From Oscillatoria sp. PCC 10802 (GTDB lineage Bacteria; Cyanobacteriota; Cyanobacteriia; Cyanobacteriales; Oscillatoriaceae), in contig NZ_KB235948.1 of assembly GCF_000332335.1 (NCBI RefSeq), positions 2,804,513 to 2,848,670 on the forward strand: 44,158 nucleotides of DNA, read 5' to 3'. A program made the position numbers and the translations under genes. The first letter of the stretch is position 1. The number at the start of each line of letters is the position of its first letter. Under the pieces are notes generated by a model. It saw nothing but the letters and a program-made list of their open reading frames with translations, had not been told where the DNA came from and searched no databases. Below are positions 4,384 through 44,158 of this stretch, in pieces.

Positions 4384-4450
4384 CCCTAACCCCTAACCCT
4401 TAACCCCCAACACCTCACCCCTCACCCCAACCCCTAACCCCTAACAGCTA
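4384..4450. repeat. STRR-like heptamer tract (CCCCTAA/CCCTAAC variants)
   Basis: ccctaacccctaacccttaacccccaacacctcacccctcaccccaacccctaacccctaac. Confidence 0.7.
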
Positions 4451-8599: not shown

Positions 8600-8896
8600 T
8601 AGGGGCACCGGGCATGGGTCATTGGGCATCATCGCATGGGGAAGGGGGCATCATCGCATGGGGTTAATTATAAACTTCTCTCCTAAAACCTAAAACCTAA
8701 CCCCTATAGCGTTTTTGATATTCCTGAGGTACTGAAAAGCCCGGTTTCTTAAAGAAACCGGGTTTGGCGCACTCCCCCAACTGAAACCCGCTAAAATGCC
8801 TAAAATATACAGCATTTAATTTGCACTTTTCATTTCTATTCTACCGTTCCGGGGCAGGCACGAAAACCCTCCAATACTGGCAAAATAACGCAATCA

Positions 8897-9106
8897 GGAG
8901 GCTCTGCCTCCTTTCAAGGGAAAAGCAGGTTAAAAGCATAACAGCTTATAGCAGTAGCCACTTAGGTCCGTACATTTCGGCCTCTTTTGCACCCCCGCAC
9001 TCCTGCTCCTATTGTCCTAACCCATATTACTACTGGCATATAGACGTAGGCCAGCGTCTGGCTGCCCTGAAGGTCTAATGTTTTAACCTAAGTGCATACT
9101 GCTATA
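8897..9106. repeat. Cluster of small repeat elements (family 3 element 8897-8937; two MITE copies 8945-9106)
   Basis: ggaggctctgcctcctttcaagggaaaagcaggttaaaagc; tatagcagtagccacttaggtcc ... cctaagtgcatactgctata. Confidence 0.65.
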
Positions 9107-9201
9107 ACTGCTGGGCATGAGGCATGGCAATTTTTAGGGGCGGTTTCATCCAAATCTTTGCCCGAAACAGCCAAATATTAATAAACTCAAAACAGCCAAT
9201 C

Positions 9202-14914: not shown

Positions 14915-15234
14915 TCTAGCAGTATTCACTTAGGTTAGGACAGTAGGTCGCAGGAGCGCCTGTCCTATAGCAGTATGCACTTAGGTTAGTACATGGGCAT
15001 TGGGGCAGTGGGCGATGGGGCATCACGCAAAAGCTGGTAGGGGCGGGTTTACTAACATCTGGTAAAACCCAGAGACATCTTGGGTGAACCCGCCCCTACT
15101 TACCCCATGCGCATGAGCCCGATGCGCATGAGCCCCATAAGCCATGTCATTAATGTCTTAACCAATATGACTGCTGCTATACGCCTTTTATCCCCAGGCC
15201 ACTGATGTCCTAAGCAATATGAATACTGCTATAT
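14915..15234. repeat. Nested MITE cluster (tatagcagtatgcacttaggttag ... ccaatatgactgctgctata with an inserted GC-hairpin element)
   Basis: Same architecture as the 20614-20797 copy, including the gcgcatgagccc x2 motif, plus an inserted ggtaggggcgggttt...aacccgcccctac hairpin also seen at 28795-28860. Confidence 0.7.
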
Positions 15235-15246
15235 TCTTAAGTCGGG

Positions 15247-16848
15247 TTAAAACAAGCCTCTTTTGCCGTTCGGCTTTACCGTCAGCCAGTTGGTTTTGGC
15301 CATAGCCAGCTGCTCGTCGGTGACGCGGGCACCGGTGAGATTGGCTCCGCAGAGATTCGCCCCCCGCAGGTTGGCGTAACTCAGATAAGCCTCGGTGAGG
15401 TCCGCACCTCTGAGATCTGCTCCCTCCAAGCAGGCGTAGCTCATATACGCTTTGACCAAATAGGCGTCCCGCAGACTGGCCTGCTTTAAATTCGCGCGGC
15501 CAAAATTGGCATTGGAGAGGTCGGAATTCTGGAAGTTGGTTTTAGCCAAGTTCGCTTGGTGGAAAATGGTTTCCGCCAGACAGGTTCTCGACAAGTCTAG
15601 CAGGCTGAGGTCGCAGGTGGCAAAATCTCGTCTGCCCTTGGTGTAGGCGGTTTTCAGACTTAGGGCATCCCACGAGCTGGGAATTTTCGCCTTACCGCCG
15701 GAAGCCCCTTTGCCGTCTATCGCCGTCACCCCCCGATTGGACGCCAGACTCCGATTTCCGGTGCCCCCGCTGGGCATGCGGGTAGCGGCGGCGCGGGCTT
15801 TGCGGGCGCGAATTTCCTCCGCCAGTTTCGAGGCGGGCGACGCCCCACCAGAAGAACTGCCGGAATCGATTGCGGTGCGGTCTTCTGGCTGAGCGGCAGG
15901 TTTGGACTGAGCGATCATGCCCTGGTTGAGGCTGTGCCGGTGCAGCTCTACATCCATCGCTCTGAGGACTTCGCTAGCTGACCCGAAACGATGGCGGACA
16001 GAAACTTCCAGCATTTTTTCTAGCACGCGCAGCAAACCGGCACTGACTGTGATATACTCCCGCCAGCGGATTTCGCCGGTGACCGGATCGTGGCCTAAAT
16101 GACTGGGAGATTTGCCTGTCAGCAGATAGATGCAAGTCACCCCCAGGGCGTAGATATCGCTGGCATACACGGGGCGCAGCGACATCTGTTCCGGTGGCGC
16201 AAAACCGGGGGTGCCAATCGCAAAGGAGGTGAGTGCCGTATTTTCTGAGGTGTTGAGGATAGCGGTTTGGCTCACTTGGTCTTTGACGGCCCCAAAGTCA
16301 ATCAGGACAAGCTTTTGGTCGATGTCGCGGCGAATCATATTGGCCGGTTTGATGTCCCGGTGAATCACCCGATGGTCGTGCAGGTACTGCACCACCGGCA
16401 GGATCTCCGCCAGAAATTGTGTGACGCCAAATTCTGTAAAAGGCCCGCTGCGCTTGACTTCTTGTTTGAGGGTCGAGCCGCTGATGTACTCCTGAACCAG
16501 GTAAAATTGCTCGCTGGCTTCAAAGTAGTCTAGCAGGCGGGGCACTTGGGGGTGATCGACAAGCTTGCCGAGGGTTTTGGCTTCTCGCTCAAAAAGCTGC
16601 CGCGCCATGTCCAAGACCTGCGGCGAGGTGGTTGCCGGGCGCAGCTGCTTGATCACGCAGCTGGGGGTTCCGGGCAAAGAAAGGTCTTGGGCCACAAAGG
16701 TCGCCCCAAAGCCCCCTTGGGCCAAAGCTTGTGTCACGCGATAGCGAGCCCGAAGCAGGAGAGTGGCTCCGCACGCTTGACACCGGTGAGCGTGGTCTGG
16801 GTTCTCAGGTTGGGGACAGGCAGGATTTACACAGATACTCATATTCAC
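15247..16848 (-). CDS. Serine/threonine protein kinase with N-terminal zinc-ribbon-like Cys cluster and C-terminal pentapeptide repeats
   Basis: CVNPACPQ...CQACG; Hanks kinase motifs VIHRDIKPANMI, DFG, GTPGFAPPE; C-terminal ANLAKTNFQNSDLSNANFGRANLKQASL... pentapeptide repeats. Confidence 0.9.
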   Translation of the reverse strand: MNMSICVNPACPQPENPDHAHRCQACGATLLLRARYRVTQALAQGGFGATFVAQDLSLPGTPSCVIKQLRPATTSPQVLDMARQLFEREAKTLGKLVDHPQVPRLLDYFEASEQFYLVQEYISGSTLKQEVKRSGPFTEFGVTQFLAEILPVVQYLHDHRVIHRDIKPANMIRRDIDQKLVLIDFGAVKDQVSQTAILNTSENTALTSFAIGTPGFAPPEQMSLRPVYASDIYALGVTCIYLLTGKSPSHLGHDPVTGEIRWREYITVSAGLLRVLEKMLEVSVRHRFGSASEVLRAMDVELHRHSLNQGMIAQSKPAAQPEDRTAIDSGSSSGGASPASKLAEEIRARKARAAATRMPSGGTGNRSLASNRGVTAIDGKGASGGKAKIPSSWDALSLKTAYTKGRRDFATCDLSLLDLSRTCLAETIFHQANLAKTNFQNSDLSNANFGRANLKQASLRDAYLVKAYMSYACLEGADLRGADLTEAYLSYANLRGANLCGANLTGARVTDEQLAMAKTNWLTVKPNGKRGLF

Positions 16849-17685
16849 CCGGATGTAGCTCTGCTGTTTGACAGCTTACTGGCTTGCACAAGTAGATGCG
16901 TTTGCCCCGTCTGGCCTCAAGCATGCTTTCCTCGGTGCCGCTAAGCTTATCCCCTACCTTAAATGATTTAAGGGGATAAACGGGATCTCTTGGGGGCAAC
17001 CCCTTGGTCGCTCCAGTAACTCTGCTTGTGTGGGCAAGTTTTTGGACTGCCGGCACCGGCAGCTCACCGGCACCCCGTTCTAAAAAGTTTCTTCTGACAT
17101 TCAGGCATTTTTCTTATCTTTAAAGTTCCTGAAAACAGGGGGCAAATAACGGTCTGGCGAATTTCTTTACAAAATTTTTACATAATTGTGTTGATTGTGT
17201 GAAGCCGGCGCGCCGGTCGGGCAACAGGGCCGGCGGGCCAGAGCGCGGTGAGGGGCGGAGGGGCTGCCGCCACGCTTGGTGCGGCAACCGGGTTTCTTTG
17301 AGAAACCCGGTTTCTGGAAAATCCCGCCGGCTCTAGACAAAAACTTAGCCGAATGGTAAAATATACGAGATTTTCTGGAAGACTGGCATCGAGATCGGGG
17401 CGGGCCGGCAGTGCCGGTGAGCCAAAATCCTGACAAATCCCTCTTGAATATTAAGATTTGCCGGCCCAATTTTTGCCGCAGGTTATTGCGGTGGCAGATT
17501 CCATTTTAACAGAGCCGGCTTTAGTTGAGTGGCTCTGTCGCCAGCCGCAAGCCGGAAACAGGTACGGTGCGTTCCCCCTTGGGGGGAAGCGCCCCTACTG
17601 TTCAAAGCTTGTGCGTTCCGGCGCTGGCGAGCGATTGAGCTGTATTTTACCGCAGCATTAAGTTTGCTCTAAAATATAGCGGTTC

Positions 17686-17772
17686 TCAGTTGGATGAACG
17701 TTAGGCCCAGAAACCCGGTTTCTTAAAGAAACCGGGTTTCTCAGTACCTCACAAAGGATGAGAAACGCGATA
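17686..17772. repeat. MITE family 2 (TIR tagcggttctca...tgagaaacgcgata; core palindrome GAAACCCGGTTTCTTAAAGAAACCGGGTTTC)
   Basis: Near-identical copy at 40173-40268; partial cores at 8739, 17281, 41477, 42955, 43150. Confidence 0.7.
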
Positions 17773-17800
17773 AACCCTTTAACCCTGTTTTCGGTGCCAG

Positions 17801-19015
17801 ATGAAACTTAGCTTTTGCATTATTGTCAAAAACGAGGAAGCCACCCTGCCCAAGTGCCTGAGCAGTGTCAGAGAGGCGGTGGATGAAATGGTGGTGCTGG
17901 ACACCGGCTCGACGGACCGGACTCCAGAAATTGCGCGAGAATTCGGCGCGAAAGTTTATCACTTCCCGTGGGGCGGCGACTTCGCAGCCGCCCGCAATGA
18001 ATCTCTGAAGTATGTCACCGGCGACTGGGTTCTGGTGCTGGATGCGGATGAAGTGCTCAAACAAGAAAGTGTGCCGCAGATAAAGGAGGCGATGCTTAAC
18101 GAGCGCTATATCCTGATCAATCTCGTCCGCCACGAAGTTGGGGCGGCGCAATCTCCCTACTCGCTGGTGTCGCGGCTGTTCCGCAATCACCCAGAGATTT
18201 ATTTCTCGCACCCCTATCACGCAATGGTGGATGATAGTGTTGCCGAGCTGTTGCGCCAAAAGCCGAATCAGTGGCAGGTGGCTGACCTGTCGCCGGTGGC
18301 GATTGAACACTATGGCTACCAGCCAGGAACGATCGCAGCTCTTGATAAGTTTACCCGAGCGCGGCAGGCGATGGAAGCGTATCTGGCTGAACACCCCTCC
18401 GATCCCTACACCTCCAGCAAGCTGGGCGCTCTGTATGTGGCAGCGGGCGAGGTGGAAAGGGGCATCGCGCTGCTGGAACTGGGTCTGGCAGCGCTGCCAA
18501 AGCCGGACAGGTCTAGCCCTGCGGCAGCGCCGGTGCTCTACGAACTCCACTACCATTTAGGCATTGCCCACACTCGCCTCTCAAAGCTGTCTAAAGCGAA
18601 GTCGCACTATAAAGCGGCGATCGAGCAGCCTATTTTGCCGCAGCTGAAACTTGGCGCTTACAATAATTTGGGCAGCTTGCTGCTGGAAACCGGCGACTTG
18701 ACGGGCGCAATTTCTGCCTTCGGGACTGCTGTCCGCGCTGAGCCGAATTTTGCTCTCGGTCACTTCAATTTGGGGATTGCTCTCAAGCAGAAGGGGCGTC
18801 TGAAGGAAGCGATTGACTCCTACCGGCAAGCGATTGCACTAGACCCTGACTGTGCGGAGGCTTATCAAAATTTGGGGGTGGCGCTGCTGAAAGCCGGCAA
18901 TGTGCTGGAGAGTTTGGATACTTTTCGAGAGGCGATTTCGCTCTACGAGCAGCGCCAGTCGCCGGCAGGCGGTCATCTGCGCCGAAGTTTGAAGGAAATG
19001 GGTTTGAGCGTTTGA
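17801..19015 (+). CDS. Family 2 glycosyltransferase with C-terminal TPR repeats
   Basis: FCIIVKNEEATLPKCLSSV...VVLDTGSTDRT...DWVLVLDADEVL (GT2 DxD); C-terminal AYNNLGSLLLETGDLTGAI..., HFNLGIALKQKGRLKEAIDSYRQAIALDP TPRs. Confidence 0.85.
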   Translation: MKLSFCIIVKNEEATLPKCLSSVREAVDEMVVLDTGSTDRTPEIAREFGAKVYHFPWGGDFAAARNESLKYVTGDWVLVLDADEVLKQESVPQIKEAMLNERYILINLVRHEVGAAQSPYSLVSRLFRNHPEIYFSHPYHAMVDDSVAELLRQKPNQWQVADLSPVAIEHYGYQPGTIAALDKFTRARQAMEAYLAEHPSDPYTSSKLGALYVAAGEVERGIALLELGLAALPKPDRSSPAAAPVLYELHYHLGIAHTRLSKLSKAKSHYKAAIEQPILPQLKLGAYNNLGSLLLETGDLTGAISAFGTAVRAEPNFALGHFNLGIALKQKGRLKEAIDSYRQAIALDPDCAEAYQNLGVALLKAGNVLESLDTFREAISLYEQRQSPAGGHLRRSLKEMGLSV

Positions 19016-19159
19016 ATTCTCTCAGGGGAAGTGGGGTGCTTTTCCGGCGGCGGAACGCACCCCGCAAGTCCTGAGATCGGGCACAAGGGCATCACGCATG
19101 CATGGCATTGGTCACTGAATTCAGGTTAATCAACCCGACATGGTAGAGCAATAAGATGT

Positions 19160-19238
19160 TAGGCTTTTAACCTGCTTTTTCGTTGAAAGGAGGCAGAGCC
19201 TCCAGATTGCGTTCCCAGCCTGAGGCTGGGAACGCTAG
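19160..19238. repeat. Family-3 repeat element (aggcttttaacctgc...ggaggcagagcctcc...gcgttcccagcctgaggctgggaacgc)
   Basis: Copies at 8897, 26452, 27378, 42863-43087. Confidence 0.6.
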
Positions 19239-19640
19239 GATAAAAAATAATGTAAATTTAATGCAGCATAGCTTAGACAGTCAGTTGAGTGCAAGGTATC
19301 TTACTTGCTAGTAGGGACAGGGATTGGAGGGAACGCCTGTCCTAGGTCCGCGCCCTAAGAGCCCAGAGCTATATAAGGTAGCGGCTTTGCCTGTCTTGAC
19401 AGTGCAGTCACTGGAGATTATTGCCTGGAGTTGGCCAAGCCCAGCCAGTCCTTGTTCGGATCGCTGCGCGGCACAGGGTTGGTCGCAGGATGAGATCTCG
19501 ATCCAGAAGCGAGCTTGACCCAACATCCGAGTGAGGGAATGCGCGTTCCCCTTGACAGTTCAAGGGTGGGGAGGGCAATCTAAAATGTGCGATCTCCGGA
19601 TGTTTTTCCATCTGTGGTGTATCCTGGAAAGAAAAACTGC

Positions 19641-19669
19641 TTGACAAATAGATGTTTTGATGTTATAAT
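19641..19669 (+). promoter_or_regulatory. Perfect consensus sigma70-type promoter (TTGACA-17 bp-TATAAT with TG extended -10)
   Basis: cTTGACAaatagatgttttgaTGtTATAATgg; no convincing ORF in the 430 bp downstream. Confidence 0.55.
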
Positions 19670-20117
19670 GGCAAGGCTTACTTTATGGCAGGTGGCTTGC
19701 ATGCTAGCCGGTGCGGTCGCCGGCAACATTGTCAGTTGCGATTTTTCCGCATCTTCTCCCACACCCCCACACATCCAAGACTCACCGCCACCGGTGGGGC
19801 GGAATTTTCTACCGCAACACGAGCACACCGGCAAGTTGAGTGCCGGTGGGAGAGGGGCTGAGGTTTTCGCCACCGGCAAAGGCGGGCAGACTCTGGAAAA
19901 GAGCCGTGCCGGCACAGTCAAAATCTGGAATTTGGCCTCTCCGGAAGGGTGAGAGCCGGTTAGGGGATATGGTTTCCGGCAAGGCGGGGAAAGCTGTGGG
20001 TAGCTCACCTTTGCCCCTGCAAACCTAAAAATTGCCACAGCATACAAGACGAATGCAGCCGGATTTGATATCAGGGGGCTTCAGTCCAGAGAGGTTCCGG
20101 CTTGCCGGTGGCACAAG

Positions 20118-20446
20118 TCAGGAGATCGTCACGACTTTACCGCTGTCCAAGTCGTAACGGGCCCCAACGATTTTCAGCCTGCCCTGTTTGAGCAACTCAG
20201 CTAGAATGGGTTGAGAGGATTTTAATTGCTCCACAACCAGTTTGACGCGACATACCTTTTATTCCCGTCCATCAATGTTTGCAGGGCTTCGTCAGGGCTG
20301 ATGCCGGCGAGAGAATGATCCTTTGCGGCGACACGTTGATGCCCAACCAGCTGGGCTACCAGGGGAGCTCCCAGAGTTCCGAGACTGGCAGCCGCGAGCA
20401 TTTCCCGGCGGGAAAGCCGTCTCAAATGCTTTCTGTTGTCCATCAT
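20118..20446 (-). pseudogene. Beta-carbonic anhydrase paralog remnant (Tat-signal N-terminus + C-terminal 40 aa; catalytic core deleted)
   Basis: ORF 20222..20446 = MMDNRKHLRRLSRREMLAAASLGTLGA...SPDEALQTLMDGNKRYV (twin-arginine signal; matches GDEALQKLMAGNKRYV of the CA at 22596). In another frame 20118-20235 gives LVVEQLKSSQPILAELLKQGRLKIVGARYDLDSGKVVTIS*, matching the C-terminus of that CA. The CADSR/HERCG core is missing. Confidence 0.75.
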
Positions 20447-20613
20447 TTGCTACCTTGCGCAAATGTTCAGTTAATAGAAGTTTAAATCTACTAGCTGGGA
20501 GGGAGCTGATCCTTAAGGTATCCCTCTTCTGTCACGTTGGGGCAATTTGACGAATTTGCGCTATTTCAGGCAACGACAGATCCGGCTTTCACCCTTGTTT
20601 GAAAAAAGAGGGG

Positions 20614-20797
20614 TATAGCAGTATGCACTTAGGTTAGTACATGGGCATCACGCATGCATGGCATCACGCATGCATGGCATCACGCATGCATGGCATCACG
20701 CAAAAGCTGTGAGTCTTTCCCATGCGCATGAGCCCGATGCGCATGAGCCCCATAAGCCATGTCATTAATGTCTTAACCAATATGACTACTGCTATAG
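20614..20797. repeat. MITE with internal 16-bp tandem repeat (catcacgcatgcatgg x3.5)
   Basis: tatagcagtatgcacttaggttagtacatgggcat ... ccatgtcattaatgtcttaaccaatatgactactgctata. Confidence 0.7.
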
Positions 20798-21077
20798 TCT
20801 TTGCAATTCGCTTTTCTGGGCACCTTCGCCCCAGTGAGCGATCGCTTTATCCAATTTTGAATAAAAAACTCAGAAGGTTAAATTTTACTTAACAAACCTT
20901 TGTAAATGTTTACATTGGGCGGGAGCTTGGTGTTGGGGAGAGAAAGGGGGAGAGGTTCAATCTAAAATTGAACGGCTTCCCCGATCCAAATTTTGTACAT
21001 TATTTATATTGCACAATAAATTTGTTTTAGCGGGCGCGCAAGCACCCGCTCAATAAAAGATTGCCAGAGCTTTTATG

Positions 21078-22445
21078 TCACTCGTTCATATTCCTGTAAG
21101 TTGCCACTGCTGAAGGAGATATGCGGCTCAGATAGCGGAATATCCAATACTTAAAGATGGTATCCAAAATCACCGGAAAAGTGGCAATAAACAAAAAGTT
21201 AAAGTCCCGACTTTCTGGCAGTCCAAGATGTCTGGATATGCCTTCTAGAATCACTTCCCAGCCATGCGGTGAGTGGAACCCCACGAAAATATCTGTCAGA
21301 AGGATAATAATAAACGCTTTAGCACTGTCGCTGAGGCCGTAAATTATCTCGTCCATAAAAGATTTCAAAATAGCGATTTCTCGCTTACTGGTGAAAACTA
21401 CTGTGGCAAAAACAGCCGCCGATATCAGGTCAGCAAAGACATTTTTTATGGCGCTGTTACCTTCGGCTCTGTACTCTTCAGCAATTTCCTCAGCTTTGTG
21501 TTTGACCCGCTCCTCTAGCTCTTCTGTGGAAAGGTGAGGTGCCGCGCCTATTAAAATTTTAAATTTCAGCTGCTCTTCAAACCGCGCCAAATCTTCAAAA
21601 GCTTCTTTCTCGAAATCTTCGTTTATAAAGATTTCCGCTGAACTTTCTTCTCGGAAGTGGTCTACTACCGGCCCGACGAGGAAATTTTTTGAGAGCTGCT
21701 GCGTCAGGAGGGGAATTAGAACAAGCAAGAGGATAAACCTCAGCGAAATAACAGTCTTATTTTTGGAATTGCGGAAATTTTGAATAACTTCCTCTTCTGC
21801 TTTTGGGTCGAGGTCTTTCTTTAGCTTTTGAACGGTTCTCAAGATTGAGCGCGGTAAAAAGCCAGTTTTATCAGAAATTGATTCAGACATTTTTGCGAAT
21901 TTTTCGGCTGAATAAGGGACTGTACTGTTCTGTGAGAGGTAGCCTGATTGGGAAGGCTGCTCGCTCTGGCTGTAAGCTACCAATAAGGAGGGAGATGAGG
22001 GGGGATAAGTCACTGGCACTGGAGAAGTGTACTTAGCCAACACCCCATCAATAAACGTCAGCTTTTCTAAAGTAATAGAAGCTTTCTCTCTCAGCACGAT
22101 ATTAGTTGAATCCTGAAAGGACTCGGAAGAATCAATAGAAAATTCTTTCGGCTGGCCTAACTTGGTAGTGGTCAGAAGTGAGTGGCTAATCTTGAAAGCG
22201 GACAAGTTGAGTCTAGCAATATTGAGGTACTTGGTTAACTGACCCTCAAAATACTGAATGACACTCTCACTGTAGTGAGCTGTTTCTGCTGAAATCTTTT
22301 GGCCGTTAAAATGCTGATCCTCGATTGATTTGATGGTCAGGGCTGCATTGTAAGCTTCCTCCAGGGCTCTCTCTGGTGTTGCGGAAAACCACTTGCTGGC
22401 ATCGCGGAAGTATCCTTGGATGTTTGTGAACTGGGGTTTTTTCAT
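21078..22445 (-). CDS. pxcA: Proton extrusion protein PxcA/CotA (CemA family)
   Basis: 455 aa; C-terminal CemA domain ...FVGFHSPHGWEVILEGISRHLGLPESRDFNFLFIATFPVILDTIFKYWIFRYLSRISPSAVATYRNMNE. Confidence 0.85.
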   Translation of the reverse strand: MKKPQFTNIQGYFRDASKWFSATPERALEEAYNAALTIKSIEDQHFNGQKISAETAHYSESVIQYFEGQLTKYLNIARLNLSAFKISHSLLTTTKLGQPKEFSIDSSESFQDSTNIVLREKASITLEKLTFIDGVLAKYTSPVPVTYPPSSPSLLVAYSQSEQPSQSGYLSQNSTVPYSAEKFAKMSESISDKTGFLPRSILRTVQKLKKDLDPKAEEEVIQNFRNSKNKTVISLRFILLLVLIPLLTQQLSKNFLVGPVVDHFREESSAEIFINEDFEKEAFEDLARFEEQLKFKILIGAAPHLSTEELEERVKHKAEEIAEEYRAEGNSAIKNVFADLISAAVFATVVFTSKREIAILKSFMDEIIYGLSDSAKAFIIILLTDIFVGFHSPHGWEVILEGISRHLGLPESRDFNFLFIATFPVILDTIFKYWIFRYLSRISPSAVATYRNMNE

Positions 22446-22595
22446 GTCGCGGCTTGTCTTGGGGATATAAGGCGTTGCAAGGGAGCGAAAGGAGCGAAGC
22501 CAGAGGGCGAAGATATAAGAGAAGAAGAGAGAGTGTGAGGGGGAGGTGACAACCTGTTTACCCCTAGGATTTTCCCCTCTCTCTTAAGCGCTATC

Positions 22596-23306
22596 TCAAG
22601 GAACCAGCTCTACTTGGCCGGTGGCCAAGTCGTAGCGAGCGCCAACAATTTTCAGCTGGCCCATTTGAACCAAGTCAGCCAAGATGGGTTGGGAAGATTT
22701 CAATTGCTCAACAACCATTATAATATTCGCTTTGACCGCGTTGTCAAGGGCATCACCGGCTTTGCCTTTTGCCTTGTCTACGGCTGGTTTGATGGCATCG
22801 ACAAAACTGAAAATGTGGCCAGGGACTGGCTTGCCGTCTAGCGCCGCCTTCACCGCACCGCACCGTTCGTGCCCCAGCACCATAATTAAAGGCACACCTA
22901 ATACCGCTGTGGCATATTCGATGCTGCCGAGAATAGCGTCGTCCAGGATATTACCCGCCACCCGAATCACAAACAAGTCCCCCAGTCCTTGGTCGAAGAG
23001 AATTTCCGGCGGAACTCGCGAATCAGCACAGCCGAGCAGGATCGCAAAAGGATGCTGGCCTTTTGCAACCTCTGCGAGACGCATTGGCGTCTGGTCTGGA
23101 TAAGTGCGCTTTTGCTCAACATACCGTTTATTCCCTGCCATCAATTTTTGCAAAGCTTCGTCACCCGTGAGTGGGGCGGCTTCTTGTGGTATTGCTGTTT
23201 CAGGAATAACGATTTCGGCCATCGCTATAGCAACTAAACCACTGGCACCAGTTAGCGCCGGTAAATCGGCTTTATAGTTTACCTTTAACTGCTGTGTATT
23301 TGGCAT
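22596..23306 (-). CDS. Beta-class carbonic anhydrase
   Basis: CADSRVPPE and HERCGAV zinc-ligand motifs; 236 aa. Confidence 0.85.
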   Translation of the reverse strand: MPNTQQLKVNYKADLPALTGASGLVAIAMAEIVIPETAIPQEAAPLTGDEALQKLMAGNKRYVEQKRTYPDQTPMRLAEVAKGQHPFAILLGCADSRVPPEILFDQGLGDLFVIRVAGNILDDAILGSIEYATAVLGVPLIMVLGHERCGAVKAALDGKPVPGHIFSFVDAIKPAVDKAKGKAGDALDNAVKANIIMVVEQLKSSQPILADLVQMGQLKIVGARYDLATGQVELVP

Positions 23307-23525
23307 CGTTTGCTGCGAGTTAAAATTTAGCTGTCCCGGGAGGGATGTAATTTATTCTAGGATTTTTTCAGCTGAATCGAGCGGTATTCCGGGAAGTGGA
23401 GAGAAGGGGGGACGCTTTTACGAACCTGTCAAAACAGCCCCCGGGTTGGGCTGCACAGTGGCAGCCCGAGCGGGAGTTAAGTTGGCGGGATCTCAGCGGA
23501 GGTTCCCCCTAAGCGCGAGAGCCGG

Positions 23526-23822
23526 TTAATGGATGATTGACTGCACGTCAGAAAGCAGGCAAACACCGCCAAACTTCTTGAGTAAAGGTCTGATGATTTC
23601 CACAAATTCAGTGGCTTTTTCTTCCGTGCAAATACTCATCACATAACCATTGCTGAACGCGGCACCCATTTCTAAATCATTGGACACGACCCCTCGCTCG
23701 CCCTTACCTGTCACCTCCCGAATGATGGTATAGCCAGAAACGCCCACCTCTTCTAAGGTTGACAGCACTTTTTCCAATTCCAATGAGGTGATGATGATTT
23801 CTACCTTTTTCATCCGGTTCAC
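23526..23822 (-). CDS. sbtB: SbtB, PII-like regulator of the SbtA bicarbonate transporter
   Basis: 98 aa, MKKVEIIITSLELEKVLSTLEEVGVSGYTIIREVTGKGERG... PII-like fold; 4 bp downstream of sbtA. Confidence 0.8.
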   Translation of the reverse strand: MNRMKKVEIIITSLELEKVLSTLEEVGVSGYTIIREVTGKGERGVVSNDLEMGAAFSNGYVMSICTEEKATEFVEIIRPLLKKFGGVCLLSDVQSIIH

Positions 23823-23826
23823 AGTG

Positions 23827-24801
23827 TCAACCTCCCAGGGTTTTAATCATTTCCAAGTACACAGGAATCCCCACTATGATATTAAAGGGGAACGTGATGG
23901 CTAGAGCCATCGAAACGTAGAGACTTGGATTGGCTTCGGGAACGGTCATCCGCATGGCTGCGGGAACCGCTATGTAAGAGGCGCTTGCCGACAGTACGGC
24001 AAACAGAAGAGAATTCCCCTCGGAAAGCCCCATCAATTTTGCGAGCAGGATGCCGATAAGAGCATTCAATACGGGGATGCAGACAGCAAAGCTAATCAGG
24101 AAAGATCCTGTTTTCTTAAGGTCTCTTATCCTTCGGGCAGCAACCATTCCCATGTCCAGCAAAAAGAACGTCAGGACTCCGTAAAAAATTCCTTGGGTGA
24201 ATGGCTGCATCTTCTCCCAGCCTTTCCCCCCTGTCAGCGCTCCTACTAAAACGCTCCCAATCAAAAGAAAGACCGAGCCATTCAGGAAAGCTTCTTTGAA
24301 AACTTCTGACCAAGAAAATTCGGAATTTTCTTCTGTCTTTTTGCCAAAGATCCTGACCAGGAGAATGCCCACAATGATGGCCGGCGATTCCATGAGGGCG
24401 AGAGCGGCTACCATGTAGCCGTCAAAATGAATGCTGAGTTTGTCCAGGAAAGAACTGGCACTGATAAAGGTGACGGCGCTGATTGACCCATAGGTGGCTG
24501 CAATAGCGGCAGCATTATAAACGTCTAGTTTGATTTTGAGGATAAAAAACGTGTAGAGAGGGACAGCACAAGCCATGATGATGGCTGCTAGGAGAGTGAT
24601 GATAATTTCCAGACTGATTCCACTCTCGTCCAGTTCATAGCCTCCCTTGAACCCTATAGCCAGGAGAAGATACAGAGAGAAGAGTTTGGGCAAAGGCTGA
24701 GGGATTTCCAAGTCAGACTTAAGAAAAATCGCCATCATCCCCAGAAAGAAGAAAAGAACCGGCGGGTTCAGAAGGTTGAACAGAATAAGGCTTGAATCCA
24801 T
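23827..24801 (-). CDS. sbtA: SbtA sodium-dependent bicarbonate transporter (DUF897)
   Basis: MDSSLILFNLLNPPVLFFFLGMMAIFLKSDLEIPQPLPKLFSLYLLLAIGFKGGYEL... polytopic; immediately followed by sbtB. Confidence 0.85.
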   Translation of the reverse strand: MDSSLILFNLLNPPVLFFFLGMMAIFLKSDLEIPQPLPKLFSLYLLLAIGFKGGYELDESGISLEIIITLLAAIIMACAVPLYTFFILKIKLDVYNAAAIAATYGSISAVTFISASSFLDKLSIHFDGYMVAALALMESPAIIVGILLVRIFGKKTEENSEFSWSEVFKEAFLNGSVFLLIGSVLVGALTGGKGWEKMQPFTQGIFYGVLTFFLLDMGMVAARRIRDLKKTGSFLISFAVCIPVLNALIGILLAKLMGLSEGNSLLFAVLSASASYIAVPAAMRMTVPEANPSLYVSMALAITFPFNIIVGIPVYLEMIKTLGG

Positions 24802-25141
24802 CTAAGCTCCTAAAATGTGTAGCAATCAACACGGAAAAATATTGGCCAAACGAACCGACTAACTCAGCCCTGACTCAGTTATGACAAATTTATAGGAGTT
24901 AGGCGTGTCGGAGGTATGTCAGTAATATGAATATGCTGTGACACCGGCACTGGCCCAGATCGCTTTCAATCTGGGCCTTCCCCACCCTCACCCGTTGCGG
25001 TGTTCGAGTCTGTGCCGGCGCACCCTTGCGGGCAGGGCTGGCACCGGCGCTCTCATATCCGCCTGTCCCTGAGCCCCACTCACCCCTGCGGTGGGGCGCT
25101 GCCGGTGGGCCTGAACGGAAGCGCCTCTGGGTAAAGAAAAA

Positions 25142-26127: not shown

Positions 26128-27069
26128 CTTTCAAATTCTGCTATACTTTGCTCAAGACAGTCGCCTAAACCTGAGAACCATCCGGCAAGTTGCTGCTCTG
26201 AAAAAAGCTCGCTCGCAATGCCTCTTCCTCATCAACCAGTAAGACGTGTTGCATGATGGGTTTACCTTGCCTGCAGTCAGCTACTGTACTTTTAATAGGC
26301 ACCTCCTCTCGATCTCATCCCCCCTCTGGGAGATTTTTGCCTGCCTGTCAGGGAAGGTGACATATTTATTTCATCTCCTATTAATTAGGATTTAATTATT
26401 TCGGCCTCCTTGGGAATGCGATTGAGAGCGGGGCGGATCGGTTTTAAGCTCTTAGGCTTTTAACCTGCTTTTACGTTTAAACGAGGCAGAGCCTACAAAT
26501 TTCGTTTTCAGCTTTATATTGAAACGAAAAATAGAGATACATAATGCAAATAAAATGCGCTATATCTTGCTGTCCGGCAGGCAGCCGGTGCCTGCCGGAT
26601 TGGTGCGGCAGCTGTCGGGAGCGCTGCGGCAGTGTTTCACCAAACACGCCGGTGTGCGGCGATCTCCCCAAAACCCCAGAGGCTTCCCGCAGCCCTATGC
26701 CGGCAGCCGCAGCCCCCCTCGCGCCCCACCGCCTCCATCTACAGGCTGCAGTTGAGAAATTCTCCTACTTTCCATGAAAAAGTGTAAATTTTATGGGAGC
26801 CGGCTAATCTTAATTATTTCTTTATGATTGGCGCGAACCCCTTGTGATATGCGGCGGTCAAGCCGGGGGTGATGTGCCGGGGATCGCCCTTCCTGCGGGC
26901 GATCCCATTGACAGTCGGCACAAATGCTGAGATACTGTAATATATAAGTGAGTCTCGGCTCGCCAAAGGGATACGTTTGGGTGCAGATTGTTAAAAACTG
27001 TAAAGTGGGAGACTTTCTGTCTCATTTTGTAGAGGCTTCGAGAAACAGGTTGAACTGAGAGGTTATAAC

Positions 27070-30613: not shown

Positions 30614-30777
30614 TATAGCAGCAGTCATATGGGTTAAGACAATAGGAGCTTCGGGAGCTCTGGAGCAAGGGAGGCCGGAATGTACCTTCCCTAAATGCCT
30701 ACTGCTATATAGACGTAGGGGGGGCGTCCCGCCCCCCTGAAGGTCTAATGTCCTAATCTAAGTGGCTACTGCTATAT
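30614..30777. repeat. MITE pair inserted between the hybrid kinase and the CheY-like gene
   Basis: tatagcagcagtcatatgggttaag ... tatagacgtagggggggcgtcccgcccccctgaaggtctaatgtcctaatctaagtggctactgctata. Confidence 0.7.
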
Positions 30778-31254: not shown

Positions 31255-31316
31255 TTATTTTACCATTCCCTTGAACTTGACAGTATTTACCCCGCACAAC
31301 CCATGTTCAGTTTTAA

Positions 31317-31348
31317 AATCCCAAATCCCAAATCCCAAATCCCAAATT
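31317..31348. repeat. STRR heptamer (CCCAAAT)x4
   Basis: aatcccaaatcccaaatcccaaatcccaaat between the sensor kinase stop and the CheY start. Confidence 0.7.
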
Positions 31349-35784: not shown

Positions 35785-35799
35785 AGGCATTTTAAGGCA

Positions 35800-35845
35800 T
35801 TTTAGAGTTTAGAGTTTAGATTTTAGATTTTAGATTTTAGATTAA
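35800..35845. repeat. STRR-like heptamer (TTTAGAG/TTTAGAT)n
   Basis: gagtttagagtttagattttagattttagattttagatt. Confidence 0.7.
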
Positions 35846-40172: not shown

Positions 40173-40268
40173 CTAGCGGTTCTCAGTTGGATGAACTATG
40201 GCCAGAAACCCGGGTTGTTAAAGAAACCGGGTTTCTCAGTACCTCACAAAGGATGAGAACCGCTATAA
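40173..40268. repeat. MITE family 2 copy
   Basis: ctagcggttctcagttggatgaac...cagaaacccgggttgttaaagaaaccgggtttctcagtacctcacaaaggatgagaaccgctata. Confidence 0.7.
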
Positions 40269-40486
40269 ATGCTGCAACCCTCTTGACAGAGAGGGTTGTT
40301 CTGTTCTATAACTAGCGCAAAATTTAATGATTCTTTAGCGGTAGCAGAGCAGATACAGCAAGGGTTGCTAAGACTTTTTAAGGTATCGCTAGCACTGCAA
40401 ATGGATATCAGATTTAACCAAAGTTACCGGGAGCGATCCCGGGATCTAGGTTTAGAAACTCCGCTTTTGGAACAAGGTGTTTTGCC

Positions 40487-42862: not shown

Positions 42863-43087
42863 GGCTTTTAATCTGTGGAGAAAGTCGGTTCCGCCGACAG
42901 ATATGCGTTCCCAGCTTCAGTCTGGAAACGAGGTTTCTGGGCGGGGGTGCAAGAAACCGGGTTTCTCAATCAATGTTTTCCCCCGGATGGGGGATTCCAG
43001 AAACCCGGTTCTCTCGTTCCCAGCTCAAGCTGGGAACGCAATCTGGAGGCTCTGCCTCCTTTCAACGGAAAAGCAGGTTAAAAGCCT
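42863..43087. repeat. Composite repeat (family 3 ends flanking gcgttcccagc hairpins and a family 2 core)
   Basis: aggcttttaatctg...gcgttcccagcttcag...gaaaccgggtttc...gcgttcccagctcaagctgggaacgc...ggaggctctgcctcctttcaacggaaaagcaggttaaaagcct. Confidence 0.65.
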
Positions 43088-43175
43088 AAGAGCTTCTGCG
43101 TAATTCATCCAAATGAAACGGCTATAATTGGCTATAATTTATCTTATTGTATCCAAAGAAACCCGGTGTCTAGTA

Positions 43176-43744: not shown

Positions 43745-43851
43745 TATAGCAATATGCACTTAGGTTAGGACAGTAAGACAGGCGAGACGCCTGTCCTACG
43801 CCTTTTGTCCCTACGCCATTGATGTCTTAACCAGTATGACTAATGCTATAG
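43745..43851. repeat. MITE copy
   Basis: tatagcaatatgcacttaggttaggacagtaagacaggcgagacgcctgtcctac...ccagtatgactaatgctata. Confidence 0.65.
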
Positions 43852-43903: not shown

Positions 43904-44158
43904 ATGGGAATGCCGCAAACAATTGTCCTCCCCTGCATGTTACCCGTGCCGGTGGCGCTGCCGGTTCCCGCCGTCGTGTTGCCTGTGCCGGTGCGGCTGC
44001 CGGTTCCTGCTGTTGTGTTACCTGTGCCGGTGCGGCTGCCGGTTCCCGCTGTCGTGTTACCTGTGCCGGTGCGGCTGCCGGTTCCCGCTGTCGTGTTACC
44101 TGTGCCGGTGGGATTGGCTGGTCCCTCCGCCTGGGTGTCAGTGCCGGTGCGGCTGTCG
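43904..44158 (+). CDS. Proline/valine-rich repeat protein, N-terminal fragment (runs off window end); strand and frame tentative
   Basis: GGAGGT then ATG. MGMPQTIVLPCMLPVPVALPVPAVVL then (PVPVRLPVPAVVL)x3, encoded by a 39-bp tandem repeat. The minus frame GNTTAGTGSRTGT is also open. Confidence 0.35.
   Translation, partial: MGMPQTIVLPCMLPVPVALPVPAVVLPVPVRLPVPAVVLPVPVRLPVPAVVLPVPVRLPVPAVVLPVPVGLAGPSAWVSVPVRLS
43982..44158. repeat. 39-bp tandem repeat x ~4.5 (cctgtgccggtgcggctgccggttcccgctgtcgtgtta)
   Basis: Period 39 by position (43982, 44021, 44060, 44099). Each unit carries two TGCCGGTG octamers. Confidence 0.8.

What the first reader, a model, noticed from the sequence alone, without database searches (positions are those of the whole stretch)
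19641..20117. Perfect consensus promoter driving ~430 bp with no gene, antisense to a dead carbonic-anhydrase copy
TTGACA-17-TATAAT with a TG extended -10 is rare as an exact match. The downstream transcript would contain several local hairpins (gcaacattgtcagttgc; ccaccggtgg; ggcggaattttctaccgc) and no credible ORF. The listed 121-aa ORF has no RBS and a low-complexity product. It also runs antisense into the 3' end of the CA pseudogene. Candidates are a small RNA, an antisense RNA, or a fossil promoter from the duplicated locus.
Basis: seen in the sequence. Interest (0 to 1): 0.5.

Follow-up and report, generated by a model that had tools for sequence, protein, structure and literature searches.

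The report
Strong promoter on a gene stump
The perfect promoter is real and conserved, but the "empty" DNA behind it is the leftover front end of a broken WD40 lipoprotein gene, whose first ~180 bases relatives still keep, probably as a small regulatory RNA.

Summary
The sequence observation holds. TTGACA-17-TATAAT with a TGn extended -10 lies at 19641-19669(+), the only such site in the window.

The region behind it is not gene-free. ORF 19668-19952 (RefSeq hypothetical WP_017717027.1, Oscillatoria sp. PCC 10802) matches the first ~97 residues of a 340/347-aa WD40 beta-propeller lipoprotein. That gene is intact at the same locus (GT-TPR -> WD40 -> <-beta-CA) in two more distant cyanobacteria.

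Eight distinct alleles from the PCC 10802 / O. princeps clade share the truncation. All eight keep the first ~180 transcribed bases (19670-19850) above the neutral rate. Seven also keep the promoter and an 80-nt upstream block. The tail 19851-20117 drifts neutrally.

The promoter, an internal SD-like site plus ATG, and a hairpin/U-tract are absent from the intact orthologues, so they are probably derived in the stump clade. The -10 box overlaps the ancestral start codon.

Codon positions are equally conserved, and frameshifts are tolerated downstream. Rfam gives no match, and there is no covariation support.

Best reading (about 0.42): a lineage-restricted small RNA, possibly dual-function, reborn from a gene stump. 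Rivals are a short peptide, a dead relic, and an antisense regulator of the carbonic anhydrase. Expression is untested. Interest is modest.

The parts
19560..19640 (+). Clade-specific conserved upstream block. It includes an invariant A-rich tract (AAAGAAAAA, 19628-19636) directly upstream of the -35, which resembles an UP element.
   Evidence: Identity to the window is 0.85-0.98 in 6 alleles, above the 4-fold-site neutral level in L002, L003 and L090 (P 0.003-0.03) but not in L084 (P 0.23). Only 2 of 21 columns vary in 19620-19640. Indels of 1 and 6 nt show it is non-coding. It is absent from the intact-gene relatives and deleted in L093.
19641..19669 (+). Sigma-70-type promoter: -35 TTGACA, 17-nt spacer, TGn extended -10, -10 TATAAT.
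   Evidence: Across 7 alleles, 2 of 14 key positions vary against 6 of 15 other spacer positions (not statistically significant), and spacer length is constant. L093 keeps only TGTTAGAAT.
19675..19850 (+). Conserved transcribed core, with the predicted start near G19675/G19676 (inferred from the -10 position). This is the candidate small RNA.
   Evidence: Identity is 0.88-0.96 in 7 alleles, with no indels except one 3-nt insertion. It beats neutral 4-fold identity with P 1e-4 to 4e-7 in four of five tested taxa and P 0.04 in the fifth. Variable columns by codon position are 16/15/20. Third positions are as conserved as first and second.
19668..19952 (+). Stump ORF (94 aa, WP_017717027.1). It corresponds to residues ~1-97 of a 340/347-aa WD40 lipoprotein: signal peptide, lipobox Cys (19737-19739), PPHIQDSP tether and a degenerate first blade.
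   Evidence: The start codon ATG 19668-19670 overlaps the -10 box, read directly from the sequence.
19690..19703 (+). SD-like AGGTGG, a 5-nt spacer, and an in-frame ATG (Met12). It is invariant in all alleles and absent from the intact orthologues, which have GTG/Val at this position.
   Evidence: Gene callers start P0002, P0005, P0007, P0008 and P0009 here.
19710..19753 (+). Local hairpin: GGTGCGG/CCGCATC enclosing GCAAC/GTTGC, followed by a T-run.
   Evidence: -17.8 kcal/mol, z -2.6. The stems are mostly invariant, with two wobble-compatible changes and three breaks.
19749..19780 (+). Nearly invariant C/U-rich tract CATCTTCTCCCACACCCCCACACATCCAAGA, the putative seed.
   Evidence: 3 of 43 columns vary in 19738-19780 across 8 alleles. 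19738-19796 is 80% identical even to the intact gene of L096, where 4-fold sites are 43% identical.
19785..19809 (+). Terminator-like hairpin plus AATTTTC. The block GGGCGGAATTTTC is invariant in 8 alleles and absent from the intact orthologues.
19826..19848 (+). Hairpin CACCGG-loop-CCGGTG with a variable loop. Conservation ends directly after it.
   Evidence: -14.7 kcal/mol, z -3.0.
19851..20116 (+). Neutrally decaying tail: a degenerate WD40 blade, then unassignable sequence.
   Evidence: Identity 0.81-0.84 in L002 and L084 equals the neutral level. It is unalignable or deleted in L003, L090 and L093. There are frameshifting indels in L002, L084 and L091.
20117..20446 (-). Dead beta-carbonic anhydrase with a Tat-type signal (EcaB-like by my own recall), convergent with the promoter.

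Best explanation
The finding is the 5' stump of a WD40 beta-propeller lipoprotein gene. In the Oscillatoria sp. PCC 10802 / O. princeps clade the gene lost six of its seven blades.

The stump clade carries a near-ideal sigma-70 promoter: an A-rich UP-like tract, TTGACA, a 17-nt spacer, a TGn extended -10, and TATAAT. The intact orthologues lack it, so it is probably a gain. Its -10 box lies on the ancestral start codon, so transcription should begin about 7 nt inside the old reading frame, near 19675.

The roughly 130-175-nt transcript made this way is what selection preserves. It contains a 5' hairpin, an almost invariant C/U-rich tract (CUUCUCCCACACCCCCACAC), a hairpin/U-tract that is probably derived (19785-19809), and a final hairpin (19826-19848).

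I propose that it acts as a small regulatory RNA. The C-rich tract would pair with G-rich ribosome-binding regions of target mRNAs. It may additionally be translated from the derived SD plus ATG at 19701 (dual function).

Shown: the promoter sequence, its conservation, above-neutral conservation of the core, the origin from the WD40 gene, and the absence of the promoter, SD/ATG and U-tract from the intact orthologues.

Inferred: transcription itself, the start and end points of the transcript, the RNA rather than a peptide as the active product, and the pairing mechanism.
For: Origin:
- A profile of the ORF family finds a 340-aa WD40 lipoprotein whose residues 7-99 align to the whole stump.
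- That gene and a 347-aa orthologue sit downstream of the same GT-TPR gene. In L096 the gene is also convergent with a beta-CA.
- tblastn of P0018 covers residues 1-97 at most, with E from 8e-9 (L091) to 4e-24 (L003); the window gives 9e-14.

Constraint:
- The core 19670-19850 is 0.88-0.96 identical across 7 other alleles, against 0.67-0.89 at 4-fold sites of flanking genes. P is 1e-4 to 4e-7 in four of five tested taxa and 0.04 in L084. There is no indel except a 3-nt one.
- The adjacent tail matches the neutral rate and accumulates indels.
- L093 deleted everything upstream of the -10, and the L003/L090/L093 alleles replaced the tail, yet the core persists.

Promoter:
- The hexamers and TG are conserved, the spacer varies at constant length, and the -10 varies only at its third position.

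Not protein-like:
- Variable columns by codon position are 16/15/20. With the same 5 taxa they are 12/14/17 or 12/14/14, whereas all 38 sixty-one-codon blocks of pxcA and GT-TPR show a clear third-position excess.
- pN/pS is 0.79 overall (P 0.2) and 1.66 in codons 39-61.
- Third positions are more conserved than neutral.
- The C-terminal half is frameshifted in L002, L084 and L091, and the lipobox Cys is lost in L091.

Absent from the intact orthologues:
- The promoter, the upstream block, the SD-like site plus ATG, and GGGCGGAATTTTC.

Not a mobile element:
- It is single-copy and syntenic, with no plasmid or phage match.
Against: - No expression data exist for this strain.
- There is no Rfam match.
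- Covariation is absent: 8 close alleles, and shuffles score as high as the observed structure.
- The global fold is no more stable than shuffled sequence and differs between alleles.
- The first 38 codons show a weak coding signal (pN/pS 0.43, P 0.026, region chosen post hoc).
- The ORF is open in all alleles, and the only core indel is in frame.
- The derived SD plus ATG looks built for translation.
- The C-rich tract also encodes a peptide motif (PPHIQDSP) shared with the intact proteins. Its conservation could therefore reflect the peptide.
- No neighbouring gene start pairs with the tract better than with shuffled seeds.
Confidence: 0.42

Rival explanations
1. The stump is still a protein-coding gene. 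It would make a short lipoprotein from ATG 19668, or a peptide from ATG 19701. Only the N-terminal ~30-45 residues (signal peptide, lipidated Cys, PPHIQDSP tether) would be functional, and the rest would be a disposable tail.
For: - It is annotated as a 94-aa protein.
- The ORF is open in all 8 alleles, and the only core indel is 3 nt.
- The signal peptide plus lipobox resembles that of the intact proteins.
- pN/pS is 0.43 in codons 1-38, P 0.026.
- Residues around the tether (P-IQD-P) are invariant between the stump ORFs and the intact orthologues.
- An SD-like AGGTGG plus ATG 19701, invariant in all alleles, lies 26 nt after the predicted start.
Against: - The conserved -10 box covers ATG 19668, so the consensus promoter cannot express the full signal peptide.
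- A product starting at ATG 19701 lacks a charged n-region.
- There is no third-position excess.
- pN/pS is 0.56 from ATG 19701 to 19781 (not significant) and 1.66 for codons 39-61.
- Synonymous sites are constrained.
- The Cys is replaced by Gly in L091, and the C-terminus is frameshifted in three alleles.
- One WD40 blade cannot form a propeller.
Confidence: 0.27
2. It is a non-functional relic: a decaying pseudogene whose 5' end and a fortuitously strong promoter have simply not yet diverged.
For: - The relatives are close (4-fold identity 0.67-0.89).
- In L084 the core barely exceeds neutral (P 0.04), and its upstream block does not.
- There is no structure, no family match and no predicted target.
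- The neighbouring CA is also dead in this strain.
Against: - The core beats neutral in all five tested taxa, four of them with P <= 1e-4, while the adjacent tail does not.
- Two independent rearrangements stop at the core's edges.
- The hexamers are conserved while the spacer varies, though that difference is not statistically significant.
- Several features absent from the intact orthologues are invariant in every stump allele.
Confidence: 0.18
3. It is an antisense or transcriptional-interference device. The strong convergent promoter would fire into the 3' end of the EcaB-like CA (and the pxcA-sbt cluster behind it) to damp or terminate their expression. The transcript sequence itself would not matter.
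For: - The convergent arrangement with a beta-CA about 440 nt away is conserved in all relatives with enough sequence.
- The locus is a carbon-concentrating cluster: sbtA, sbtB, pxcA and CA.
- The plus-strand terminators are weak.
Against: - Interference would not require a conserved first 180 nt.
- The part that would face or overlap the CA evolves neutrally.
- The promoter and core are fully intact in the window although its CA target is dead.
- The hairpin/U-tract inside the core suggests early termination.
Confidence: 0.1

Closest known systems
Yfr1 (Rfam RF01116), the abundant cyanobacterial small RNA
   Same: Both have an unpaired C/U-rich motif between stem-loops. Yfr1 also ends in a hairpin with a U tail, and this core contains a similar hairpin/U-tract. 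The Yfr1 motif is ACUCCUCACAC (PMC2190773); here it is CUUCUCCCACAC. Yfr1 has been linked to sbtA mRNA (PMC12873609), and this element lies in an sbtA-sbtB-pxcA-CA cluster.
   Different: Yfr1 is 54-69 nt and found throughout cyanobacteria. This core is about 130-175 nt and confined to one Oscillatoria clade. The ultraconserved 11-mer is not present without a gap. No Rfam hit appears even at E <= 10. This element derives from a coding sequence.
Small RNAs born from degraded genes or pseudogene remnants (described mainly in enteric bacteria; from my own knowledge, no paper read here)
   Same: A gene fragment retains or gains a promoter and is kept as a short transcript in a narrow lineage.
   Different: Here the promoter is a full consensus with an extended -10 and overlaps the ancestral start codon. 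Expression is unproven.
Dual-function small RNAs that also encode a peptide, such as SgrS/SgrT or RNAIII/hld (from my own knowledge)
   Same: A short transcript carries both a conserved nucleotide tract and an SD plus ATG with an open frame.
   Different: There is no evidence for either activity here. The frame is inherited from the parent gene rather than evolved within an sRNA.
WD40 beta-propeller lipoprotein P0018 / P0158 (340/347 aa), the parent gene
   Same: The N-terminal ~97 residues, the genomic position and the orientation are the same.
   Different: The stump lacks six blades. It has a different upstream region and promoter, and it carries an internal ATG and a U-tract that would be unwelcome inside a working gene.

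Membership tests
Sigma-70 (group 1) consensus promoter | -35 TTGACA and -10 TATAAT separated by 17 +/- 1 bp | tested here: met
   12/12 match with a 17-nt spacer and TGn.
Sigma-70 (group 1) consensus promoter | Hexamers conserved in relatives more than the spacer | tested here: inconclusive
   2 of 14 key positions vary against 6 of 15 spacer positions in 7 alleles, at constant spacing. The direction fits, but the difference is not statistically significant.
Sigma-70 (group 1) consensus promoter | A mapped transcription start about 7 nt downstream of the -10 | not testable with these tools
   No transcriptome for Oscillatoria sp. PCC 10802 was found.
Yfr1 small RNA | Ultraconserved 5'-ACUCCUCACAC-3' in an unpaired stretch of 16-20 nt (PMC2190773) | tested here: not met
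   The sequence read directly is CUUCUCCCACAC, which needs a 1-nt gap. There is no covariance-model hit at E <= 10.
Yfr1 small RNA | 54-69 nt with two stem-loops, the second a Rho-independent terminator | tested here: not met
   The conserved unit is about 130-175 nt, and its hairpin arrangement differs.
Structured non-coding RNA (any Rfam family) | Match to a curated covariance model | tested here: not met
   There were 0 hits at gathering threshold in the whole window and only chance-level hits at E <= 10.
Structured non-coding RNA (any Rfam family) | Base pairs supported by compensatory changes | tested here: inconclusive
   2 of 43 pairs have double changes. Shuffles reach the observed covariation score in 127 of 500 trials. 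The alleles are too similar to decide.
Protein-coding gene under purifying selection | Excess of third-position (synonymous) change; pN/pS well below 1 | tested here: not met
   Variable columns are 16/15/20, and pN/pS is 0.79 (P 0.2). Only codons 1-38 reach 0.43 (P 0.026). The controls pxcA and GT-TPR show a strong third-position excess.
Protein-coding gene under purifying selection | Reading frame preserved across relatives | tested here: inconclusive
   The frame is preserved through codon 61 in all alleles, then frameshifted in L002, L084 and L091.
WD40 beta-propeller lipoprotein (P0018 family) | Signal peptide with a lipobox Cys, followed by seven WD40 blades | tested here: not met
   Only residues ~1-97 remain. 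At most one blade survives, below the Pfam threshold in P0008 and P0004 and undetectable in the window. This is a truncated remnant, not a member.
cis-antisense RNA to the carbonic anhydrase | Transcript overlaps the target gene on the opposite strand | not testable with these tools
   The promoter is about 440 nt from the CA stop codon. Overlap depends on read-through past two weak terminator-like sites.

The most novel reading that the evidence does not exclude
A working regulatory small RNA (or dual-function RNA) was created from the first 180 nt of a decayed lipoprotein gene by placing a full-consensus promoter on top of the old start codon. It would have been retained since the common ancestor of the sampled stump lineages, inside the sbtA-sbtB-pxcA-carbonic-anhydrase cluster, where it may tune carbon uptake through its Yfr1-like C-rich tract.
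Probability: 0.2. Interest if true: 0.55.

Novelty: new member of a known kind. Interest (0 to 1): 0.35.

Why it matters
If the transcript is real, this is a clean, datable case of a gene remnant converted into a new transcription unit. Intact relatives show the state before, and eight stump alleles show what selection kept afterwards. It would also add a lineage-specific regulator beside cyanobacterial carbon-uptake genes.

In practical terms, the RefSeq 'hypothetical protein' at this locus is probably mis-modelled, because its start codon lies under the -10 box. If the transcript is not real, this is an ordinary pseudogene with a lucky promoter.

Tried and rejected
- Rfam at gathering threshold (whole window) and at E <= 10 (19000-21100): nothing meaningful.
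- tRNA/tmRNA scan: none.
- Consensus folding and pair counting: no covariation signal. The global MFE is not better than shuffles.
- nhmmer with the core against about 80 cyanobacterial pxcA loci: only the known clade.
- Metagenome DNA scan with the invariant tract: only contigs already held.
- Two protein searches with the stump ORFs: the same 9 clusters.
- Pairing of the C-rich tract with start regions of 27 window genes, including sbtA, sbtB, CA and pxcA: no better than shuffled seeds.
- The repeat D15 (19938-19968 vs 23504-23534) as evidence of a duplication: a chance match, E 0.49.
- A recent CA duplication: rejected, since the two CAs are old paralogues.
- Mobile-element or vector origin: no plasmid or phage match, and the element is single-copy and syntenic.
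- Reverse-strand ORF 19580-20047: its frame is broken by the indels seen in relatives.
- Literature: no transcriptome for the strain.

Full report
**1. Observation**

The + strand carries TTGACA (19641-19646), a 17-nt spacer ending in TGT, and TATAAT (19664-19669). It is the only 12/12 promoter-like site in 15000-25000. With the TG included, no dinucleotide shuffle of the 44-kb window produced even a one-mismatch match. By my own arithmetic, an exact hexamer pair is expected about once per 6.9-Mb genome. Rarity alone therefore proves little, and conservation has to carry the argument.

**2. Context**

The window is Oscillatoria sp. PCC 10802, also labelled Kamptonema formosum. On the minus strand lie:
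- sbtA, 23827-24801
- sbtB, 23527-23813
- a beta-carbonic anhydrase, 22596-23306
- pxcA/cemA, 21078-22445
- a dead second carbonic anhydrase, 20117-20446

On the plus strand, a glycosyltransferase-TPR gene (GT-TPR) ends at 19015.

The dead CA carries a Tat-type signal. Compared with the intact orthologue in O. princeps it lacks 394 nt, including all catalytic residues. It is only 78-87% identical, over short stretches, to the CA at 22596-23306. It is therefore an old paralogue and the positional orthologue of the relatives' intact gene, not a fresh duplicate.

**3. Relatives**

A pxcA-anchored genome scan, protein searches and contig look-ups gave eight distinct alleles of the region. All are syntenic wherever the contig is long enough to show the neighbours (GT-TPR -> element -> <-CA <-pxcA). 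They are the window, L091, L092, L084, L002, L003, L090 and L093. No copy exists in about 70 other cyanobacterial pxcA loci, in the metagenome scan beyond contigs already held, or in plasmids and phages.

**4. What is conserved**

Identity at 4-fold degenerate sites of pxcA and GT-TPR between the window and these relatives is 0.67-0.89. Measured against that baseline:

| Segment | Identity to the window | Compared with neutral |
|---|---|---|
| 19670-19850 (core) | 0.88-0.96, no indel except one 3-nt insertion | Above neutral; P 1e-4 to 4e-7 in four of five tested taxa, 0.04 in L084 |
| 19560-19640 (upstream block) | 0.85-0.98 | Above neutral in L002, L003 and L090; not in L084 (P 0.23) |
| 19851-20117 (tail) | 0.81-0.84 in L002 and L084 | Equal to neutral; indels accumulate; unalignable in L003, L090 and L093 |

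L093 has deleted everything upstream of the -10, back to the GT-TPR terminator, yet it keeps TGTTAGAAT and the core.

Within the promoter, 2 of 14 key positions vary across 7 alleles against 6 of 15 spacer positions, at constant spacing. That difference is not statistically significant. The -10 varies only at its third position, and the A-rich tract before the -35 is almost invariant. This is the pattern expected of a working promoter.

**5. What the DNA behind the promoter is**

RefSeq annotates 19668-19952 as a 94-aa hypothetical protein. Gene callers elsewhere start at the in-frame ATG at 19701.

A profile of the nine family members, searched against 1.8 billion representatives, found many WD40-repeat proteins matching only the last third. 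One 340-aa protein (P0018) aligned by its residues 7-99 to the whole ORF. P0018 and a 347-aa orthologue (P0158) are seven-blade WD40 lipoproteins. Both are encoded directly downstream of the same GT-TPR gene, and in L096 the gene is convergent with a beta-CA.

tblastn of P0018 covers residues 1-97 at most in every stump allele, with E from 8e-9 (L091) to 4e-24 (L003); the window gives 9e-14. The region is therefore the 5' stump of that gene: signal peptide, lipobox Cys, a PPHIQDSP tether and one degenerate blade. That blade scores below the Pfam threshold in P0008 and P0004 and is undetectable in the window.

**6. Features absent from the intact orthologues**

The two intact orthologues have AT-rich upstream regions unrelated to the stump clade's block, and no TTGACA-17-TATAAT. 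They also lack three features that are invariant in every stump allele:
- the ATG at 19701, where they have GTG (Val)
- the AGGTGG 5 nt before that ATG
- the block GGGCGGAATTTTC, which forms a terminator-like hairpin and U-tract

With only two outgroups, a gain in the stump clade is the more parsimonious reading, but it is not proven. The -10 box overlaps the ancestral start codon (ATG 19668-19670). A transcript from this promoter therefore cannot encode the full signal peptide.

**7. RNA or protein?**

*Against protein-level selection.*
- Variable columns by codon position are 16/15/20.
- With the same five taxa they are 12/14/17 or 12/14/14. All 38 sixty-one-codon blocks of pxcA and GT-TPR show a larger third-position excess.
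- pN/pS is 0.79 overall (permutation P 0.2) and 1.66 for codons 39-61.
- Third positions are as conserved as first and second, and more conserved than neutral.
- Three alleles are frameshifted downstream of the core, and L091 has lost the lipobox Cys.

*For some protein-level selection.*
- Codons 1-38 give pN/pS 0.43 (P 0.026, region chosen post hoc).
- The frame is open in all alleles, and the one core indel is in frame.
- The tether residues (P-IQD-P) are shared with the intact proteins.
- The stretch 19738-19796 is 80% identical to L096, although 4-fold sites between those genomes are 43% identical.
- The derived SD-like site and ATG form a normal translation start 26 nt after the predicted transcription start.

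*RNA structure.* Two local hairpins stand out: 19710-19753 (z -2.6) and 19826-19848 (z -3.0). The global fold is not better than shuffles and differs between alleles. Covariation is uninformative. No Rfam family matches.

*The C-rich tract.* It resembles the Yfr1 motif ACUCCUCACAC (PMC2190773) but does not contain it. Yfr1 has been connected with sbtA (PMC12873609), which makes the location suggestive and nothing more. The tract pairs with local gene starts no better than shuffled seeds do.

**8. Verdict**

The promoter is real and selected. The 'gene-free' stretch is a gene stump. Only the first ~180 transcribed bases and the upstream block are maintained.

I favour a lineage-restricted small RNA, possibly dual-function, at about 0.42. 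A short peptide gene comes next at about 0.27, then a non-functional relic at about 0.18, then an antisense or interference role on the CA at about 0.10.

All four readings hinge on transcript mapping, which these tools cannot provide.

Noticed in passing
window 20117-20446 (-): The beta-carbonic anhydrase with a Tat-type signal (RRLSRREML) is dead in this strain. A 394-nt internal deletion removes all catalytic residues and shifts the frame. The orthologue is intact (about 239 aa) in L002, L084, L090 and L093.
   Followed up: yes
window 22596-23306 (-): An intact beta-CA paralogue without a signal peptide sits between sbtB and pxcA. L084-type relatives have only about 500 nt of spacer there. 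This strain may have swapped which CA it keeps in the carbon-uptake cluster.
   Followed up: partly
window 14966-15181 and 20614-20796: A composite repeat is present twice at 99-100% identity. The copy between the dead CA and pxcA contains a perfect 16-nt tandem array, GGCATCACGCATGCAT x3.7 (20644-20702).
   Followed up: no
window 8887-8952, 19148-19224, 26445-26527, 43014-43095: A MITE-like dispersed repeat (about 70-80 nt, 84-94% identity, both orientations) with an internal GGAGGCAGAGCCTCC hairpin. The copy at 19148-19224 is part of the extra DNA that separates GT-TPR from the element in this strain.
   Followed up: no
window, about 10 sites, e.g. 2389-2424, 9073-9107, 15148-15182, 20763-20797, 30742-30777, 43817-43851: A family of about 35-nt inverted-repeat ends (TATAGCAGTA..CACTTAGGTTAGGAC and its complement) is scattered through intergenic regions. 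They look like termini of small non-autonomous elements.
   Followed up: no
window 17702-17789 and 40197-40284: An 88-nt repeat (88% identity) containing the palindrome AGAAACCCGGTTTCTTAAAGAAACCGGGTTTCT. A third partial copy lies at 8725-8765.
   Followed up: no
window 4384-4445, 31316-31347, 35799-35843: Heptanucleotide tandem arrays: CCCTAAC x9, AAATCCC x4.6 and ATTTTAG x6.4. They resemble the short tandem repeats of filamentous cyanobacteria.
   Followed up: no
window 43938-44155: A 39-nt tandem repeat (4.4 copies, 92% matches) runs to the window's end. It may be a repetitive coding region.
   Followed up: no
L093 400-480: In this metagenomic allele a deletion joins the GT-TPR terminator hairpin directly to the -10 region. 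This is a natural promoter truncation that still keeps the core.
   Followed up: partly
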